A stretch of DNA of 64,000 bases from the human T2T-CHM13v2.0 reference genome, Homo sapiens: the NCBI RefSeq assembly GCF_009914755.1, contig NC_060941.1; one strand, given 5' to 3'. The notes beneath the pieces are model-generated. The model worked only from the letters and a program-made list of their open reading frames with translations, was not told the DNA's origin and did no database searches. Shown piece by piece: positions 39,286-44,179 of the stretch (position 1 is its first letter; every line of letters starts with the position of its first letter). The position numbers were made by a program, and so were the translations under genes.

Positions 39286-39324
39286 AGTAGCAGGGGCCCC
39301 ACTGTCCCCCTGGTCGCCCCCCTG

Positions 39325-39455
39325 AGCGGTCCACACGCCCCACCACCAGCATTACCTGGAAGCTTGTTAGAGTCACAGAATCCCAGCTCCACCCTAGAAT
39401 ATGAAATTGGCATCCGCACTTTCATATAAAGACCCTGGGGACTCAGGGTGCATTA
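39325..39455. mobile_element. MER5A fragment
   Basis: 'ccagcattacctggaagcttgttagagtcacagaatccc'. Confidence 0.6.
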
Positions 39456-39785
39456 CAGTGACAATTCTCCAGGACAAGTGCTACGTTCCCGGAGGGTGGG
39501 GGGTGTTGGGGTGAATGGAGGGGGATGAGCATGTAGAGGCTCTAAGGAACCCAGGGAACTGGGGGCAGGTGCAGAGTTCGTCTGGGCCAGTTTGGTCCAG
39601 CTTACCAGATGTTTCACTTGCTGACCTCCAGGGCCGGATGACACCTGTGTCTAGCCACATCCCGGCCTTCACTCTGGATATTCGAGAATGTTGACTCCCC
39701 ACTTGAGAAGTTCCCCTACTTCCAACTCCCTGGACCCCCTCCCCTCCTGCTCGTGGAGGCAGCTGGCTGGGTCTGATCTCTAGGC

Positions 39786-40568
39786 ATTTGTGTTAGCCAC
39801 ATTACCAGAAGGGGCCCTGATCCAGACACCCAAGAGAGGGTTCTTGGATCCTGCACAAGAAAATAATCTGGGGCGAGTCCATAAAGTGAAAGCAAGTTGA
39901 TTCAGAAAGTAAAGGAAAAAAGAATGCCCTTACCCAAATGCTGCCAGCAAGGGAACACCCTCTCTGGCTGCAGCCCCTCTGAATGGCTCATGTCATTGAG
40001 CCTTACTTTCTCATTACAAGTCCCACTGGCAGCATGAATGGGGGGTCTGGAGTCCCCTATATGTGACTGTCAGAGGTGTTTGAACAAGAGCAACTCCATC
40101 TTGAATGGGGGCTGGATAAACTGAGGCTGAGACCTACTGGCGCCAGTTATGGTTAAGGCATTGTAAGTCACAGGATGAGACAGGAGGTCAGCACAAGATA
40201 CAGGTTATAAAGACCTTGCTGATAAAACAGGTTGCAGTAAAGAAGCTGGCTAAAAGCCACCAAAACCAAGATGGCAATGAGAGTGACCTCTGGTCATCCT
40301 CATTGTTCATTATATGCTAATTATAATGCATTGGCATGATAAAAGACACCCCCACCAGCACCAAGACAGTTTACAGATGCCATGGCAACATCAGGAAGTT
40401 ACCCTATATGGTCTAGAAAGGGGAGGAACCCTCAGGTCAGGGGATTGCCCACCCCTTTCCTGGAAAACTGATGAATAATCCACCCCTTGTTTAGCATATA
40501 ATCAAGAAATAACCATAAAAATGGGCAACCAGCGGCACTCAGGGCTGCTCTGCCTATGGAGTAGCCAT
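39786..40568. repeat. TSD-flanked, part-inverted copy of 42772-43562 (MER41B plus unique flanks)
   Basis: TSD tctgatctctaggc at 39772-39785 and 40569-40582. 39785-39926 matches 42772-42913 (direct); 39926-40571 is the reverse complement of 42908-43562. Confidence 0.95.
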
Positions 40569-41046
40569 TCTGATCTCTAGGCCCAGACAAGCCCACTCTC
40601 CCCTCTGCCAGAACAAACTTCCCCTGGTCCCCACTTCCTGAGCATTTTCCCAACTGCCTCCTGCATTTTTCTTCTGCATCAGTCTCTCTCATTGGAAACA
40701 CTTTCATCTCCCCTTTGAGCTGGATTTGGGGCTTCCCCTGAGCCTCTGAGGTATTGTCTCTGTCACCAATTAGAATATAAAAGCTCAGCCATTTATCAAA
40801 GATACCCAGAAAGCAGTACCTGGACTGAAGTGCAGACAGGCATGTGTCTGCAAACCCAGATGCAGCCTCGCCTGGCGTGCACCGTTTCCACCCAACGTGG
40901 TCAGGAGGCTGGGAATGCATTTACAGACGGTCCCTGTAATCCCACAGGTGGGTGAGGGGATTTCCATTTTACATCTGAGGCTCAGGGAGGCAAGGGACTC
41001 CCTTAAGTCCTATGAGTGTGTGTATAAGTACAGCCAAAAAAAAACG

Positions 41047-41321
41047 GGCCGGGCACGGTGGCTCACGCCTGTAATCCCAGCACTTTGGGAGGCCAAGGCG
41101 GGTGGATCATGAGGTCAGGAGATCGAGACCATCCTGGCTAACATGGTGAAACCCCGTCTCTACTAAAAAATAGAACAAAAATTAGCCAGGCATGGTGGTG
41201 GGTGCCTGTAGTCCCAGCTGCTCAGGAGGCTGAGGCAGAAGTTGCAGTGAGCCAAGATCACGCCACTGCACTCCAGCCTGGGCGGCAGAGTGAGACTCCA
41301 TCTCAAAAAAAAAAAAAAAAA
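41047..41321 (+). mobile_element. AluSc/Y-like with an internal right-arm deletion
   Basis: 'gagatcgagaccatcctggctaac'; 'gaggctgaggcagaagttgcagtg' shows loss of the segment between the two gaggc motifs. Confidence 0.92.
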
Positions 41322-42312
41322 GAGGCAACGACTCAATTAAACAAGTTACTCTCTTGCCAATTCTGATCCACTTCCTCCTTCACCCCACACCACACCCAAT
41401 GTGCCCAAGACCAGCTGAGAACTCAAACATTCCTCTGGGTGTGTCAGGATCAATGAACACAGAAAGTCCAGGAACACATTCTAATGAAACACGGTGGCTC
41501 ACAGTGTTCCTACGTAAGCTTTAGGCTTATTTGCACATTTTTAGACAGTAAATAGGCTCAACTCTGAGACAATGAAATGCATCATTTGCCAGGAGGCGAC
41601 TCCATGTGATGGAAACTGCTAGAACTTGGCTGGACCCGGTTGCCACTTTCCCCCTTGGTGACTCGAGGCTGGGATCTTCAAATATTTTTTAAAGTTGTCC
41701 TATTTAAAAAGGAATTGATTTATTCTGAATTGTTCAAAGGTTGTGTTAGGACCAGAAGGCAGAAGAACAGGGAGAAACTTGGCTTTCTAACCCTTACTAA
41801 CAGTAATGGCACGCAATTACTGGCCTCGGAGAGCAATGTCTCAGACACGCAGGGCCCTCTTCCTCCTACCCTTAAGATTCCACCTTGGTCTACAGGTGAG
41901 AGCCTTCCAGGACCTCCTGTGTGACCCAGAGTGTGTGGGGAGAGTCCTCACTCCCTCCTAAACGAAGAGAATCAGGGCCTAGTTGGGAGATACCTGATCT
42001 CAACTGGGCCACATCCCAGCCTGATAAACAGATTCATGGCTGGGTCAGGCTAGCCTGGAGGCCACCACCCACCGCTCTCTACTCCTGGTGCCAGCTCTCC
42101 GTTCCATGCATGACGGGGTCTGCAAGGCAGGCAGTAACCCTTTGGGGAACCAATGGGTGAGGTGGTGAGTCCAGAGCCTGCCTGGTGGGCCCAGGTCTCC
42201 TCCGGGCAGACTCTAATGTCTCAGTTTGAGAGAGAAGTAGGTAGAAGACTCTGACTTTGGCCCTATGAGCATTTTCCACTCAAGCGTTTTCAGGAGACCC
42301 TGCCCATTAAAG

Positions 42313-42537
42313 CAGGGGTCTGCAAATGTTTTCATAAAGGTCTAGATAGTAAATACTTTGGGCTTTTTGCCCCAAACAGTCTCTGTTGCAACCACTCGAT
42401 GCCATTGTCATGCAAAAGCAGCCACAAACAATATGTAAATGAATGAGAGTGGCTGTGTTCTAATAAAGCTTTATTTATAAAAGCAGGCCACAGCAGGGCT
42501 GGATTTGACCTGTGGGCCAGAGTTTGCCAATCTGCTT
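42313..42537 (+). mobile_element. MER58A
   Basis: 'caggggtctgcaaa...gatagtaaatacttt...ggctgtgttctaataaagctttattta...gtttgcc'. Confidence 0.88.
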
Positions 42538-42649
42538 GAGAGTTACTGGGCCTCCAAGACTCTGACACGCATTTGGCTCCATGAGTTCAGAGGGCAAGGT
42601 GGGTGAAAGATCGATGCTCCCATTTGTCAATTGGAACCTTGGGGGTCAC

Positions 42650-42786
42650 CCATTAACCTGGTAGATCTTCCAAAAGCACCCTGGGGTCCATGCTGTCATC
42701 ATCCCCATTTTACAGATGAGAAAGTAGAGACTCAGGCTCAGGACCTTGCCCTGGATTCATATTGGTGGTGACATTTGTGTTAGCCA
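42650..42786 (-). mobile_element. MIR fragment
   Basis: 'atcatccccattttacagatgagaaagt'. Confidence 0.65.
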
Positions 42787-43420
42787 CATTACCAGAAGGG
42801 GCCCTGATCCAGACCCCCAAGAGGGGGTTCTTGGATCCTGCACAACCAGATAATTTGGGGCGAGTCCATAAAGTGAAAGCAAGTTGATTCAGAAAGTAAA
42901 GGAATAAAGAATGGCTACTCCATAGGCAGAGCAGCCCTGAGTGCCGCTGGTTGCCCATTTTTATGGTTATTTCTTGATTATATGCTAAACAAGGGGTAGA
43001 TTATTCATCAGTTTTCGGGGAAAGGGGTGGGCAATCCCCTGACCTGAGGGTTCCTCCCCTTTCTAGACCATATAGGGTAACTTCCTGATGTTGCCATGGC
43101 ATCCGTAAACTGTCAAGGTGCTGGTGGGAGTGTCTTTTAGCATGCTAATGCATTATAATTAGCATATAATGAACAATGAGGATGACCAGAGGTCACTCTC
43201 ATTGCCATCTTGGTTTTGGTGGGTTCTAGCCAGCTTCTTTACTGCAACCTGTTTTATCAGCAAGGTCTTTATAACCTGTATCTTGTGCTGACCTCCTGTC
43301 TCATCCTGTGACTTAGAATGCCTTAACCCTGACTGGGGAATGCAGCCCCAGTAGGTCTCAGCCTCATTTTATCCAGCCCCCATTCAAGATGGAGTTGCTC
43401 TTGTTCAAACACCTCTGACA
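42787..43420 (-). mobile_element. MER41B ERV1 solo LTR (634 bp)
   Basis: The reverse strand reads tgtcagaggtgtttgaacaagagcaactccatcttgaat...ggggcccttctggtaa; 4-bp TSD gcca at 42783-42786 and 43421-43424. Confidence 0.92.
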
Positions 43421-44179
43421 GCCACATAGAGGGGACTCCAGACCCCCCATTCATGCTGCCAGTGGGACTTGTAATGAGAAAGTAAGGCTCAATGACATGA
43501 GCCATTCAGAGGGTCTGCAGCCAGAGAGGGTGTCCCCTTGCTGGCAGCATTTGGGTGAGGGCTGCCTAGCTGGGCGTGGGGGCCTGATTCCCTCCGAGGC
43601 TTCCTCCAGCTCTCTGCAGGTGACACCAGGCTCTTTATAAATAGCAGGGCCTGCTTTCACCAGGACTTGCTGGTCTGCTGCTTTGTAAACAGGCTTTCTT
43701 CTATTTGTGCTCTCTTCTGAGCATCGTTCTATACTCCTTGAGGTTAGGGACACCTTGGTAGTGACCACACCCTGCCCCACACAGCCTGGACAGATCTCTG
43801 TTCACTGGGGGCCTGGCTGACCAGTGATGGAAGGTGAGTACGGGAGCACCGTCACCCAGAGTTCACTAAACCTTGGGAGTGGACGACCTGAGAGCCCCAA
43901 GGTGGCCTTGGTCTCTGCCCATCATGCCTGATAGAGAGCACCTACCTCCAGGAATGGAAGCAGTGAGGGAGGCTTTGTGTTTTTCAAAAGAATAAAGTGC
44001 AAATTGGTGGTCTGACTCCAATGCCAAACACCGTGCCCAACAGGAGATCCCTGCGCAGCCTGCCAGCGCTGACAAGGAGGAAACAGTAACAAATGCCATC
44101 TCCACGAAAATCACATCGCAGCATTCGCAGGCAAGAGTGGGGGCCTGGGCCACACACTGGCTGCTGTGTTTCCCTGCAA

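What the first reader, a model, noticed from the sequence alone, without database searches (positions are those of the whole stretch)
39772..43562. Tailless 'twin-primed' local copy of a MER41B locus: candidate fossil of break repair templated by nascent RNA or ssDNA
Seen: a 14-bp TSD (tctgatctctaggc at 39772-39785 and 40569-40582) encloses two segments. One is a direct copy of 42772-42913; the other is an inverted copy of 42908-43562. Together they tile the donor exactly once, with a 6-bp overlap, and include unique flank on both sides of the LTR (15 bp and ~140 bp), so this is not a second ERV integration. Junction microhomologies are 1, 1 and 3 bp, and segment 1 differs from the donor at ~7/141 positions. 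Both 3' ends of the staggered break extended by copying the same (minus, LTR-sense) donor strand, and the first product stops where the second primed. Established: this is the twin-priming geometry of 5'-inverted L1 retrocopies, whereas two-ended repair from a duplex donor gives a non-inverted insert. However, there is no poly(A), the target is not TT/AAAA, and the donor is only 2.2 kb away. The LTR poly(A) signal is mutated to AATCAA in both copies, consistent with read-through RNA. Inference: in-cis capture of a nascent transcript (or displaced ssDNA) at a break by a reverse transcriptase (L1 ORF2p) or polymerase theta.
Basis: partly seen in the sequence, partly recalled or inferred. Interest (0 to 1): 0.87.

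Follow-up and report, generated by a model that had tools for sequence, protein, structure and literature searches.

The report
Split, half-inverted local DNA copy
About 790 bases of human chromosome 17 were copied once into a staggered break 2.2 kb away, one part forwards and the other backwards, which looks like an old repair scar where both broken ends copied the same single strand.

Summary
A perfect 14-bp duplication (39772-39785, 40569-40582) encloses a direct copy of 42772-42913 and an inverted copy of 42908-43562. The two pieces cover the donor once, with a 6-bp overlap, and the junction microhomologies are 1, 1 and 3 bp. There is no A-tail and no L1 endonuclease motif.

The donor is the older arrangement. 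It is an intact LTR (about 42778-43420, minus sense) that runs colinear with 8 of 8 other family copies examined. The 136 bases of its flank searched (43427-43562) occur only twice in the genome, at the donor and in the copy.

Divergence is 28 substitutions in 788 aligned sites plus one 9-bp gap, which suggests roughly 10-35 million years.

The geometry requires two 3' ends extended on the same minus-polarity single strand, with one product stopping where the other primed. That is the twin-priming geometry, and I put it at about 0.8.

The sequence cannot identify the template. I favour DNA, namely the break's own resected 3' tail (0.45). On the donor's side of the break that tail is the minus strand, and the donor lies within the published resection range.

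This is a new variant of known break-repair and retrocopy scars, of moderate interest.

The parts
39772..39785 (+). Left copy of the 14-bp target-site duplication TCTGATCTCTAGGC. Its last base, C, is shared with donor position 42772 (1-bp microhomology).
   Evidence: D12; 2 matches in the window, 0.03 expected.
39785..39926 (+). Segment A, a direct copy of donor 42772-42913. It holds the 3' end of the LTR (LTR sense is minus) plus 6-17 bp of flank. 7 of 142 positions differ.
   Evidence: (D1).
39926..40571 (-). Segment B, an inverted copy of donor 42908-43562. It holds the rest of the LTR plus about 142 bp of unique flank. There are 21 substitutions in 646 aligned positions, and 9 bp of the donor (43339-43347) are absent near 40141-40143. 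G at 39926 is shared with segment A, and TCT at 40569-40571 is shared with the right duplication.
   Evidence: (I1, I2).
40569..40582 (+). Right copy of the 14-bp target-site duplication.
42772..43562 (-). The donor, 791 bp, whose minus strand served as template. It contains an intact solo LTR at about 42778-43420 (5'-TGTCAGAGG...GGCTAACA-3' on the minus strand), flanked by 42772-42777 and 43421-43562.
   Evidence: 40 hits scored, and all 38 outside this locus lie within query positions 39-686, about 42778-43425; 8 of 8 other copies are colinear across 42796-43419; termini; the flank stretch 43427-43562 occurs only twice in the genome.
42908..42913 (.). AGAATG, the 6 bp of the donor present in both segments. 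Its first 3 bp are the priming microhomology of the right-hand 3' end. The left-hand product ends 3 nt beyond them.
43564..43569 (+). GCCTAG, 1 nt beyond the far end of segment B. It equals the first 6 nt of the reverse complement of the duplication. It may be an anchor or a loop-out microhomology, or it may be chance.
   Evidence: only 6-mer hit near a breakpoint. Empirical frequency is 0.029 for a terminal 6-mer within 3 nt of a breakpoint. The test is post hoc.

Best explanation
This is a one-off scar of break repair, made roughly 10-35 million years ago.

The target was opened with 14-nt 3' overhangs, which is why the 14 bp are now duplicated. Both 3' ends were then extended on the same single strand, the minus strand of 42772-43562.
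- The left (top-strand) end primed at 42772 on 1 nt of pairing and copied up to 42913.
- The right (bottom-strand) end primed at 42908-42910 on 3 nt (AGA:TCT) and copied up to 43562.
- The left product stopped where it ran into the right primer, which gives the 6-bp overlap.
- The two new strands were released, paired at a single G:C and filled in, giving direct A followed by inverted B.

This is the twin-priming geometry, and I put it at about 0.8.

For the template I commit to DNA, namely the break's own 3' tail. 5'-to-3' resection running rightwards from the break removes the plus strand and leaves the minus strand single-stranded as far as the donor, 2.2-3.0 kb away. The right end snapped back onto its own tail, and the left end primed on that tail in trans. 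This would be a kilobase-scale form of synthesis-dependent microhomology-mediated end joining. Synthesis would be started by an end-joining polymerase such as Pol theta and probably continued by a more processive enzyme.

Shown: the anatomy, the strand logic, which copy is the donor, and the uniqueness of the flank. Inferred: the staggered break, that the two primings were simultaneous, the nature of the template, and the enzymes. The confidence below is for the DNA-tail version.
For: - Geometry: direct A, inverted B, exact single coverage with a 6-bp overlap, and seamless 1/1/3-bp junctions.
- One event from this donor: the flank stretch 43427-43562 is found only at the donor and in the copy in 3.1 Gb. 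This is the only high-identity duplicate pair in the window. A and B do not differ in divergence (7/142 against 21/646, Fisher p=0.32).
- Direction: the donor LTR is colinear with 8 of 8 other copies, while the copy is split.
- Strand: the strand used as template is the one that resection from a break on the donor's left would expose. Its chance is 1 in 2 if the strand were free. This is derived.
- Distance: the far end of B lies 2,980 nt from the break. In human cells the 5' strand is resected up to 3.5 kb (PMC3919611, abstract seen in the listing).
- Staggered breaks: paired-nick breaks with overhangs gave more insertions, including complex ones, and 26% of all donor sequences came from the cut locus itself. 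Resected ends were proposed there as templates after microhomology pairing (bioRxiv 10.1101/2022.09.30.509517, sections 8 and 13).
- Known repair modes: snap-back, loop-out and trans priming on single-stranded tails are described for SD-MMEJ (PMC5728401, passages). Two fragments from one locus in inverted orientation, adjacent with little or no overlap, are the common complex insertion in yeast RPA mutants (PMC11724301, sections 19 and 22).
- Against an L1/RNA route: no A-tail, no TTTT/A-like nick site, and the donor lies in cis.
- Fidelity: the changes on the copy's lineage are rich in transversions (3 transitions to 9 transversions, against 65-69% transitions in the family; binomial p about 0.005, post hoc). 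That fits low-fidelity synthesis.
Against: - Resection alone does not make a duplication. A break with 14-nt 3' overhangs must be assumed, and I have no cause for it at this GC-rich site. That stagger length is the L1 hallmark (peak 14-16 bp, PMC2912911; 12-18 bp for 5'-inverted insertions, PMC11702581).
- Published snap-back and templated insertions are mostly under about 150 bp and use templates within tens of bp of the break. Here 142 and 655 nt were synthesised from a template 2.2-3.0 kb away.
- In yeast the junction between inverted fragments has a median 6-bp microhomology, range 2-11. Here it is 1 bp.
- The 6-bp overlap and 14-bp duplication fit L1 twin priming quantitatively.
- Strand polarity and distance are each weak tests.
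- The transversion excess is post hoc. Other LTR copies range from 7:8 to 16:3, and copy against donor lineage is not significant (Fisher p=0.17).
- No orthologous empty site could be examined. The target flanks have no paralogue in the assembly, and no primate genomes are available here.
Confidence: 0.45

Rival explanations
1. RNA template. A minus-strand read-through or nascent transcript covering 43562 to 42772 was reverse-transcribed from both 3' ends of the break. This would be true twin priming, by L1 ORF2p acting at a non-consensus site, or by a cellular polymerase with reverse-transcriptase activity (Pol theta or Pol zeta).
For: - The geometry is that of 5'-inverted L1 insertions. Published values are a median TSD of 13 bp (quartiles 10-15). 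In 46% (132 of 287) of 5'-inverted insertions the two cDNAs end within 20 bp of each other, and overlaps have a median of 12 bp (quartiles 4-17) (PMC12016303). 5'-inverted insertions have discrete 12-18-bp TSDs with microhomology (PMC11702581).
- Only 63-70% of L1-mediated insertions show a canonical cut motif.
- Retrocopies without tails but with TSDs exist (PMC2912911 and PMC5322556).
- RNA-templated break repair is shown in human cells, independent of L1 and Pol theta, with Pol zeta as candidate (PMC12065846, abstract and section headings). Pol theta can reverse-transcribe RNA (PMC8195485, listing only).
- The LTR poly(A) hexamer reads AATCAA in donor and copy, against AATAAA in 5 of 8 other copies. 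A transcript would therefore not be cut there.
Against: - There is no A-tail.
- Both nick sites match 0 of 6 positions of TTTT/AA. Even tailless retrocopies use TT/WAAAAWW targets with 2-18 nt of complementarity to the RNA. Here the complementarity is 1 nt.
- A template drawn from the RNA pool would almost never come from 2.2 kb away. The nascent-RNA-in-cis version has to be assumed.
- The transcript must begin at least 142 nt upstream of the LTR, so the LTR promoter is not its source.
- No minus-strand gene is annotated across 39.7-43.6 kb in the table supplied with the finding.
- A TATA-like motif at 43634-43643 is wrongly spaced for a start at 43562.
- No RNA-specific mark is present, neither splicing nor clustered A-to-G changes (2 of 12 copy-lineage changes).
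Confidence: 0.25
2. Serial template switching by one nascent 3' end (FoSTeS/MMBIR type). The top strand leaves the target at 39785 and copies 42772 to 42913. It then switches to the opposite strand at 43562 and copies back to 42908. It returns to the target 14 nt behind where it left, which creates the apparent target-site duplication.
For: - Local donor, microhomology at every junction, no tail, and no need for a staggered break.
- The second switch could be stabilised by loop-out pairing of the duplication's 3' end, CTAGGC plus the next A, with TGCCTAG at 43563-43569.
- Templated insertions attributed to MMBIR are widely reported (PMC8421209, listing only).
Against: - It gives no reason why the backward copy should stop at 42908, within 6 nt of where the forward copy stopped at 42913. 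Across a 650-nt segment that coincidence is of the order of 1 in 50-100 (my estimate).
- It needs three switches, two of them on 1 nt of pairing.
- The GCCTAG match is only marginally unusual (0.029, post hoc).
Confidence: 0.15
3. Both 3' ends invaded an intact duplex copy of the donor, on the same chromatid, the sister or the homologue. They did so through microhomology, happened to pair with the same strand, and one D-loop blocked the other.
For: The junctions and tiling are the same as in the best explanation. RAD51-bound donor loci contribute disproportionately to templated insertions at human breaks (bioRxiv 10.1101/2022.09.30.509517, section 13).
Against: Invading a duplex on 1-3 nt of pairing is inefficient. 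Use of the same strand by both ends would be a 1 in 2 accident rather than a consequence of the mechanism. The short distance to the donor is not required by this model.
Confidence: 0.1
4. Two separate events: a plain, non-inverted insertion of 42772-43562, followed later by an inversion of its right-hand 650 bp.
For: Nothing specific.
Against: One inversion breakpoint would have to coincide to within 0-3 bp with the end of the insert. The other would have to duplicate AGAATG at both ends of the inverted block. A and B also show the same divergence.
Confidence: 0.03

Closest known systems
L1 twin priming (5'-inverted L1 insertions and processed pseudogenes; Ostertag and Kazazian 2001, known to me only from the reference lists and text of PMC12016303 and PMC2912911)
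   Same: Two 3' ends of a staggered break extend on one single-stranded template. The product is inv(5' part) followed by the 3' part, flanked by a TSD of about 14 bp. There is a small overlap at the inversion point and microhomology at the junctions.
   Different: There is no poly(A) and no TTTT/A-type nick site. The template is not an L1 or an mRNA. The donor lies 2.2 kb away in cis, and RNA origin is not shown.
Tailless retropseudogenes (Schmitz et al. 2004, not read; Noll et al. 2015, PMC5322556)
   Same: TSD-flanked retrocopy-like inserts without an A-tail, primed internally on the template.
   Different: Those derive from small structured RNAs and use TT/WAAAAWW targets with 2-18 nt of complementarity to the RNA. 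None of the passages I saw describes an inverted form (the term 'inver' has 0 occurrences in PMC5322556). Here the complementarity is 1 nt, the target is GC-rich and the source is 791 nt of intergenic sequence.
Synthesis-dependent MMEJ and Pol theta-mediated end joining with snap-back, loop-out and trans templated insertions (PMC5728401; PMC4912351 seen in a listing only)
   Same: 3' single-stranded tails prime on 1-4 nt microhomologies in cis or across the break. Synthesis is aborted, the strand is released, and the ends are joined at new microhomology. New direct and inverted repeats of nearby sequence are left behind.
   Different: The scale differs. Templates there lie within tens of bp and the insertions are tens of nt. 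Here the template is 2.2-3.0 kb away and 783 bp were inserted. A 14-bp TSD is not a feature of that pathway.
Paired inverted insertions from one locus at yeast double-strand breaks (PMC11724301)
   Same: [quoted passage not shown]
   Different: Those donors are distant. The fragments have a median length of 50-150 bp, and the junction between them has a median 6-bp microhomology. The authors explain them by a template switch at the donor followed by capture. This case is local, 142 plus 655 bp, with a 1-bp inner junction and TSD-flanked.
Templated sequence insertions (TSIP class 1 and class 2, PMC5110952) and RNA-templated DSB repair (PMC12065846)
   Same: Non-mobile genomic sequence is copied into a break while the donor stays intact. 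Class 1 has TSDs, and class 2 has microhomology junctions and no tail.
   Different: This case mixes the two classes. It has the TSD of class 1, but lacks the tail, poly(A) signal and TTTT/A site, like class 2. It is split and half-inverted, and its donor is local rather than distant.

Membership tests
L1-mediated twin-primed retrocopy | Target-site duplication of about 7-20 bp | tested here: met
   A perfect 14-bp duplication lies exactly at both ends of the insert.
L1-mediated twin-primed retrocopy | inv(5' part)-(3' part) order relative to one template strand, with the two parts meeting or overlapping | tested here: met
   Read on the minus strand, the insert is inv(43562..42908) followed by 42913..42772, with a 6-bp overlap.
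L1-mediated twin-primed retrocopy | Poly(A) tail at the 3' end of the non-inverted part | tested here: not met
   The junction reads ...CTAGGC|ATTTGTG, with no A or T run. By contrast the Alu at about 41046-41322 carries an A-run of about 17.
L1-mediated twin-primed retrocopy | First-strand nick at a TTTT/AA-like site | tested here: not met
   The inferred nicks are AGGC/CC on the top strand and CAGA/CC on the bottom strand, 0 of 6 matches each. Shifting the nicks by the microhomology lengths does not help.
L1-mediated twin-primed retrocopy | Template is an RNA (processed, or bounded by transcript ends) | not testable with these tools
   The donor has no intron. Its ends are not at a poly(A) site or a recognisable start. 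No expression data are available here.
Tailless retropseudogene | TSD present and A-tail absent | tested here: met
Tailless retropseudogene | Target complementary to the last 2-18 nt of the copied RNA, with a TT/WAAAAWW-type target (PMC5322556) | tested here: not met
   There is 1 nt of complementarity at 42772. Only 3 of 14 positions of the overhang match the donor upstream. The target is GC-rich.
SD-MMEJ / Pol theta-type templated insertion | Insert templated from sequence near the break, primed at short microhomologies, creating direct and/or inverted repeats | tested here: met
   The donor is 2.2 kb away on the same chromosome, with 1/1/3-bp junctions and one direct plus one inverted repeat.
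SD-MMEJ / Pol theta-type templated insertion | Usual scale: template within tens of bp, insertion up to tens of nt | tested here: not met
   The insert is 783 bp (39786-40568) and the template lies 2,189-2,980 bp from the break.
SD-MMEJ / Pol theta-type templated insertion | Dependence on Pol theta (or Pol delta) and on end resection | not testable with these tools
   This needs genetics in cells.
FoSTeS/MMBIR complex rearrangement | Several template switches at microhomology within a local region | tested here: inconclusive
   The junctions fit. The exact tiling of the two segments and the TSD are not predicted by this model.
Second, independent ERV/LTR integration | Insert bounded by the LTR termini with a short (4-6 bp) duplication and no donor flank | tested here: not met
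   The insert carries about 142 bp plus 6-17 bp of the donor's non-LTR flank. The LTR in it is split and half-inverted, and the duplication is 14 bp.

The most novel reading that the evidence does not exclude
The insert is a germline fossil of RNA-templated break repair in cis. A nascent, non-polyadenylated transcript still tethered to the locus was reverse-transcribed from both ends of a staggered break 2.2 kb downstream, independently of the L1 endonuclease. That would make tailless twin-primed local copies a readable genomic signature of this pathway, besides whole-intron loss.
Probability: 0.2. Interest if true: 0.8.

Novelty: new variant of a known kind. Interest (0 to 1): 0.5.

Why it matters
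The exact tiling of a direct piece and an inverted piece records which strand was copied. An ordinary duplicate never shows that. A genome-wide collection of such scars could therefore answer an open question using sequence alone.

The question is whether breaks in the mammalian germline are patched from nascent RNA or from their own resected single-stranded tails. If RNA is the template, the copied strand should follow the direction of transcription. If the resected tail is the template, the copied strand should follow the side on which the donor lies, and donors should lie within resection range.

This single locus does not settle the question. It shows that the signature exists, that it can be kilobase-sized, and that it can carry an L1-like 14-bp duplication without any other L1 mark.

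The insertion also left a 646-bp inverted repeat of about 97% identity around a 2.3-kb spacer. That is a possible substrate for recurrent inversion.

Tried and rejected
- Empty-site proxy: I searched the whole assembly with the left flank (39300-39785) and the right flank (40569-41040). Each found only itself, so there is no paralogue to stand in for the pre-insertion site. No primate genomes are held by these tools.
- L1 endonuclease site and poly(A): looked for at both junctions and not found.
- Natural RNA ends: the template's 3' end (42772) lies about 110 nt past the LTR hexamer, not 10-30 nt. The TATA-like motif at 43634-43643 is about 75 nt from 43562. I rejected both as support for RNA.
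- APOBEC-type damage of a single-stranded template: of the four copy-lineage changes at C on the template strand, only one (43316) sits in a TpC context, reading by eye. Rejected.
- Excess mutation in the copy: 13 changes on the copy lineage against 8 on the donor lineage, binomial p=0.38. Not significant. Only the transition/transversion ratio stands out.
- Different age of the two segments: rejected (Fisher p=0.32).
- Longer hidden pairing between the overhangs and their priming sites: 3 of 14 and 5 of 14 matches, read by eye. None.
- Alternative right junction at TCAGA (42889-42893): it needs an extra 17-nt deletion. Rejected as less parsimonious.
- Capture of two adjacent lagging-strand fragments by ligation: I considered this and dropped it. 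The junction microhomologies point to priming, and the 655-nt piece is too long for one such fragment.
- NAHR inversion between the two inverted arms as the origin of the arrangement: the pre-inversion state would put the two 14-mers in opposite orientation and is no simpler. Rejected.
- Literature: searches did not turn up a TSD-flanked, tailless, half-inverted local copy in a germline genome. This covers only the held open-access library. The supplementary figures S9-S10 of PMC11702581, which show insertions with sequence templated near the integration site, were not seen and may hold similar cases.
- One search was repeated with valid terms. One search was not repeated.

Full report
**1. 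What is in the sequence**

- A perfect 14-mer, TCTGATCTCTAGGC, lies at 39772-39785 and again at 40569-40582.
- Between them, 39785-39926 is a direct copy of 42772-42913 (142 nt, 95%).
- 39926-40571 is the reverse complement of 42908-43562. It is reported as two ungapped arms of 218 and 429 nt, 97% each, offset by a small indel.

The 14-mer occurs only at those two places in the window even with one mismatch allowed. Shuffles give 0.03 expected, and 0 of 100 reached two matches. A self-BLAST of the whole window finds no other pair of at least 60 bp at 90% identity or more.

Global alignments show seamless junctions.
- C at 39785 is shared between the duplication and donor 42772.
- G at 39926 is shared between the end of segment A (42913) and the complement of 43562.
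- TCT at 40569-40571 is shared between the end of segment B (complement of 42908-42910) and the right duplication.
- Donor bases 42908-42913 (AGAATG) are represented in both segments.

There are no untemplated bases and no A or T run at either end.

**2. Which copy is the donor, and is it one event?**

A search of the whole assembly with 42740-43600 returned 41 matches from 4,252 first-look candidates, of which 40 were scored. Three matches are the locus itself and the two segments of the copy (95% identity). The other 38 are 83-87% identical and cover only query positions 39-686. They are members of an LTR family.

A pairwise BLAST of the donor against eight of them gives contiguous matches from 42778-42796 to 43419-43425 in 8 of 8. 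Their ends show the termini 5'-TGTCAGAGG and, in the longer copies, GGCTAACA-3' on the window's minus strand. I therefore place the LTR at about 42778-43420 in minus orientation.

The donor is colinear with the family, whereas the copy is split and half-inverted. So the donor arrangement is ancestral.

The copy carries 6-17 bp of non-LTR flank on one side and about 142 bp on the other. A genome search with 43427-43900 finds its first 136 bases (43427-43562) only at the donor and in the copy.

This is therefore a copy of this particular locus and not a second integration. The two segments do not differ in divergence (7 of 142 against 21 of 646, Fisher p=0.32), as expected for a single event.

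**3. Age and mutation pattern**

There are 28 substitutions in 788 aligned sites (Kimura distance 0.036) plus one 9-bp gap. With recalled per-year rates of 0.5 to 1.2 x 10^-9, this gives about 15-36 million years.

I used the eight other LTR copies only to say which lineage changed.
- About 12 substitutions and the 9-bp deletion fall on the copy's lineage.
- Eight fall on the donor's lineage, including three changes within 4 bp at 42846-42849.
- Three are unresolved.
- The five differences in the flank cannot be polarised.

The totals do not differ significantly (13 against 8, p=0.38).

The copy-lineage changes are 3 transitions to 9 transversions. The family background is 65-69% transitions (binomial p about 0.005; Fisher p=0.011 against private changes in the other copies). 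This fits some errors being made during the copying itself. In that case the donor lineage alone (8 in about 643 sites) gives about 10-25 million years.

The test is post hoc. The other copies range from 7:8 to 16:3, and copy against donor lineage gives p=0.17. I treat the result as a hint only.

**4. What the geometry forces**

The new top strand at the left end reads 42773 to 42913 in plus sense. The new bottom strand at the right end reads 42911 to 43562, also in plus sense.

Both 3' ends therefore copied the minus strand of the donor. They moved in the same direction, one starting at the template's 3' side and one internally. The first product ends 3 nt beyond the 3-nt site where the second primed.

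Both 3' ends carry the 14 nt, so the break had 14-nt 3' overhangs. The two products were then joined 3' end to 3' end at a single G:C and filled in.

It is the only model I could construct in which the exact tiling is a consequence and not a coincidence. I give about 0.8 to 'two ends on one single strand at the same time'.

**5. What the template was**

*L1/RNA reading.* Three quantities match L1 twin priming.
- TSD: peak 14-16 bp (PMC2912911, passages), median 13 bp (PMC12016303, passages), and 12-18 bp for 5'-inverted insertions (PMC11702581, passages).
- Junction microhomology.

Three other features do not match.
- There is no A-tail.
- Both nick sites (AGGC/CC and CAGA/CC) match TTTT/AA at 0 of 6 positions. 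Even tailless retropseudogenes use TT/WAAAAWW targets with 2-18 nt of complementarity (PMC5322556, passages).
- The donor is 2.2 kb away in cis. A template taken from the RNA pool would almost never be that close.

The Alu at about 41046-41322 shows what canonical L1-mediated insertion looks like in this same stretch: a long A-tail in an A-run target.

An RNA would also have to start at least 142 nt upstream of the LTR and be primed internally 6-17 nt past its end. The AATCAA hexamer (AATAAA in 5 of 8 other copies) is compatible with read-through, but it is not evidence that a transcript existed.

RNA-templated break repair is real in human cells and independent of L1 and Pol theta (PMC12065846, abstract and headings). 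The reading therefore stays open, at 0.25.

*DNA reading.* A break at the target is resected 5' to 3'. On the right-hand fragment the plus strand is removed and the minus strand remains as a 3' tail. That is the strand that was copied.

The far end of segment B is 2,980 nt from the break in present coordinates, which include an Alu that may be younger. Resection of up to 3.5 kb is reported in human cells (PMC3919611, abstract in the listing).

In this model the right 3' end snaps back onto its own tail at TCT (42910-42908) and copies outwards, possibly up to the resection limit. The left end primes on the same tail in trans and stops at the snapped-back primer. Both products are then unwound and joined, and the long gap is filled.

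Snap-back, loop-out and trans priming on tails, followed by release and re-annealing, are the defining steps of SD-MMEJ (PMC5728401, passages).

Other published results bear on this model.
- In human cells, paired-nick breaks with overhangs give more insertions, including complex ones. 26% of all donor sequences come from the cut locus itself. Resected ends are proposed as templates after microhomology pairing (bioRxiv 10.1101/2022.09.30.509517, sections 8 and 13).
- In yeast, two fragments of one locus in inverted orientation are the common complex insertion. In one RPA-related mutant the fragments are adjacent with little or no overlap (PMC11724301, sections 19, 20 and 22).

The weaknesses are these.
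- Scale: hundreds of nt copied from kilobases away, against tens of nt from tens of bp in the published cases.
- The 1-bp inner junction, against a median of 6 bp in yeast.
- The unexplained 14-nt stagger.

A hybrid is conceivable, in which an ORF2p-type staggered break is repaired from nearby DNA. PMC11702581 reports three L1 insertions with extra sequence templated near the integration site (its supplementary figures were not seen). The nick sites here argue against ORF2p.

I put the resected-tail version at 0.45. Invasion of an intact duplex by both ends gets 0.10.

*Serial template switching by one end (0.15).* This explains the local donor and can produce the duplication by re-entry 14 nt upstream. 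It could also use a loop-out pairing. GCCTAG at 43564-43569, 1 nt beyond segment B, is complementary to the 3' end of the left overhang.

That match has an empirical frequency of 0.029 for a terminal 6-mer within 3 nt of a breakpoint, and 0.18 for any 6-mer, so it is only suggestive. In the two-ended model the same motif could anchor the right overhang and explain why B stops at 43562.

Serial switching does not explain why the two segments tile.

*A plain duplication followed by an inversion (0.03).* This needs one inversion breakpoint to coincide with the end of the insert, and it needs a 6-bp duplication at both ends of the inverted block.

**6. Comparison with what is known, and novelty**

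The locus works like twin priming. It fails two defining tests for an L1-mediated retrocopy (tail and nick site), and a third test (RNA origin) cannot be run here.

It works like SD-MMEJ or templated insertion, but lies far outside their usual scale and has a TSD.

It mixes the two published classes of templated sequence insertion (PMC5110952, passages). It has the TSD of class 1 and, like class 2, lacks the tail and the cut site.

My searches found no description of a TSD-flanked, tailless, half-inverted local copy in a germline genome. They cover only the held open-access library, and I did not see the supplements.

I rate it a new variant of a known kind.

**7. Verdict**

The RNA inference is unsupported, though it is not excluded.

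The value of the locus is that this class of scar records the template strand. A genome-wide collection could therefore decide between RNA and resected-DNA templates. One locus cannot. Interest 0.5.

Noticed in passing
39926-40571 and 42908-43562; also 39785-39926 and 42772-42913: The insertion created a 646-bp inverted repeat of about 97% identity around a 2,336-bp spacer, and a 142-bp direct repeat 2,987 bp apart. These are possible substrates for recurrent inversion of 40572-42907, or for deletion, in human populations.
   Followed up: no
copy 39785-40571 compared with donor 42778-43420: Changes assigned to the copy's lineage are 3 transitions to 9 transversions, plus a 9-bp deletion with three further changes within about 10 bp of it (43329-43337). 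The family background is 65-69% transitions.
   Followed up: partly
42846-42849: Three substitutions within 4 bp fall on the donor's lineage. The copy and all informative other LTR copies agree with one another here. This looks like a multi-nucleotide mutation that happened after the copying.
   Followed up: no
43564-43569 and 42923-42927: GCCTAG lies 1 nt beyond segment B, and TAGGC lies 10 nt beyond the end of segment A. Both match the 3' end of the 14-bp duplication, in opposite orientations, so segment B is bracketed by a short inverted motif related to the target. This is marginal statistically.
   Followed up: partly
about 41046-41322: An Alu lies between the copy and the donor, with an A-tail of about 17 in an A-run target. 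It is a canonical L1-mediated insertion. If it is younger than the event, the donor was about 0.3 kb closer to the break at the time.
   Followed up: no
43634-43643: A TATAAATA / TATTTATA motif is readable on both strands, about 75 nt upstream (in minus sense) of the far end of the copied segment. The spacing does not fit a start at 43562.
   Followed up: no
42885-42890 and 39898-39903: The LTR poly(A) hexamer reads AATCAA in both donor and copy, while 5 of 8 other family copies have AATAAA. The change therefore predates the copying.
   Followed up: yes
39786-40568 and 42778-43420: In the repeat-mask list supplied with the finding, only 43114-43330 of the donor LTR is masked and none of the copy is. 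Mask-based scans would miss most of this LTR and its duplicate.
   Followed up: no
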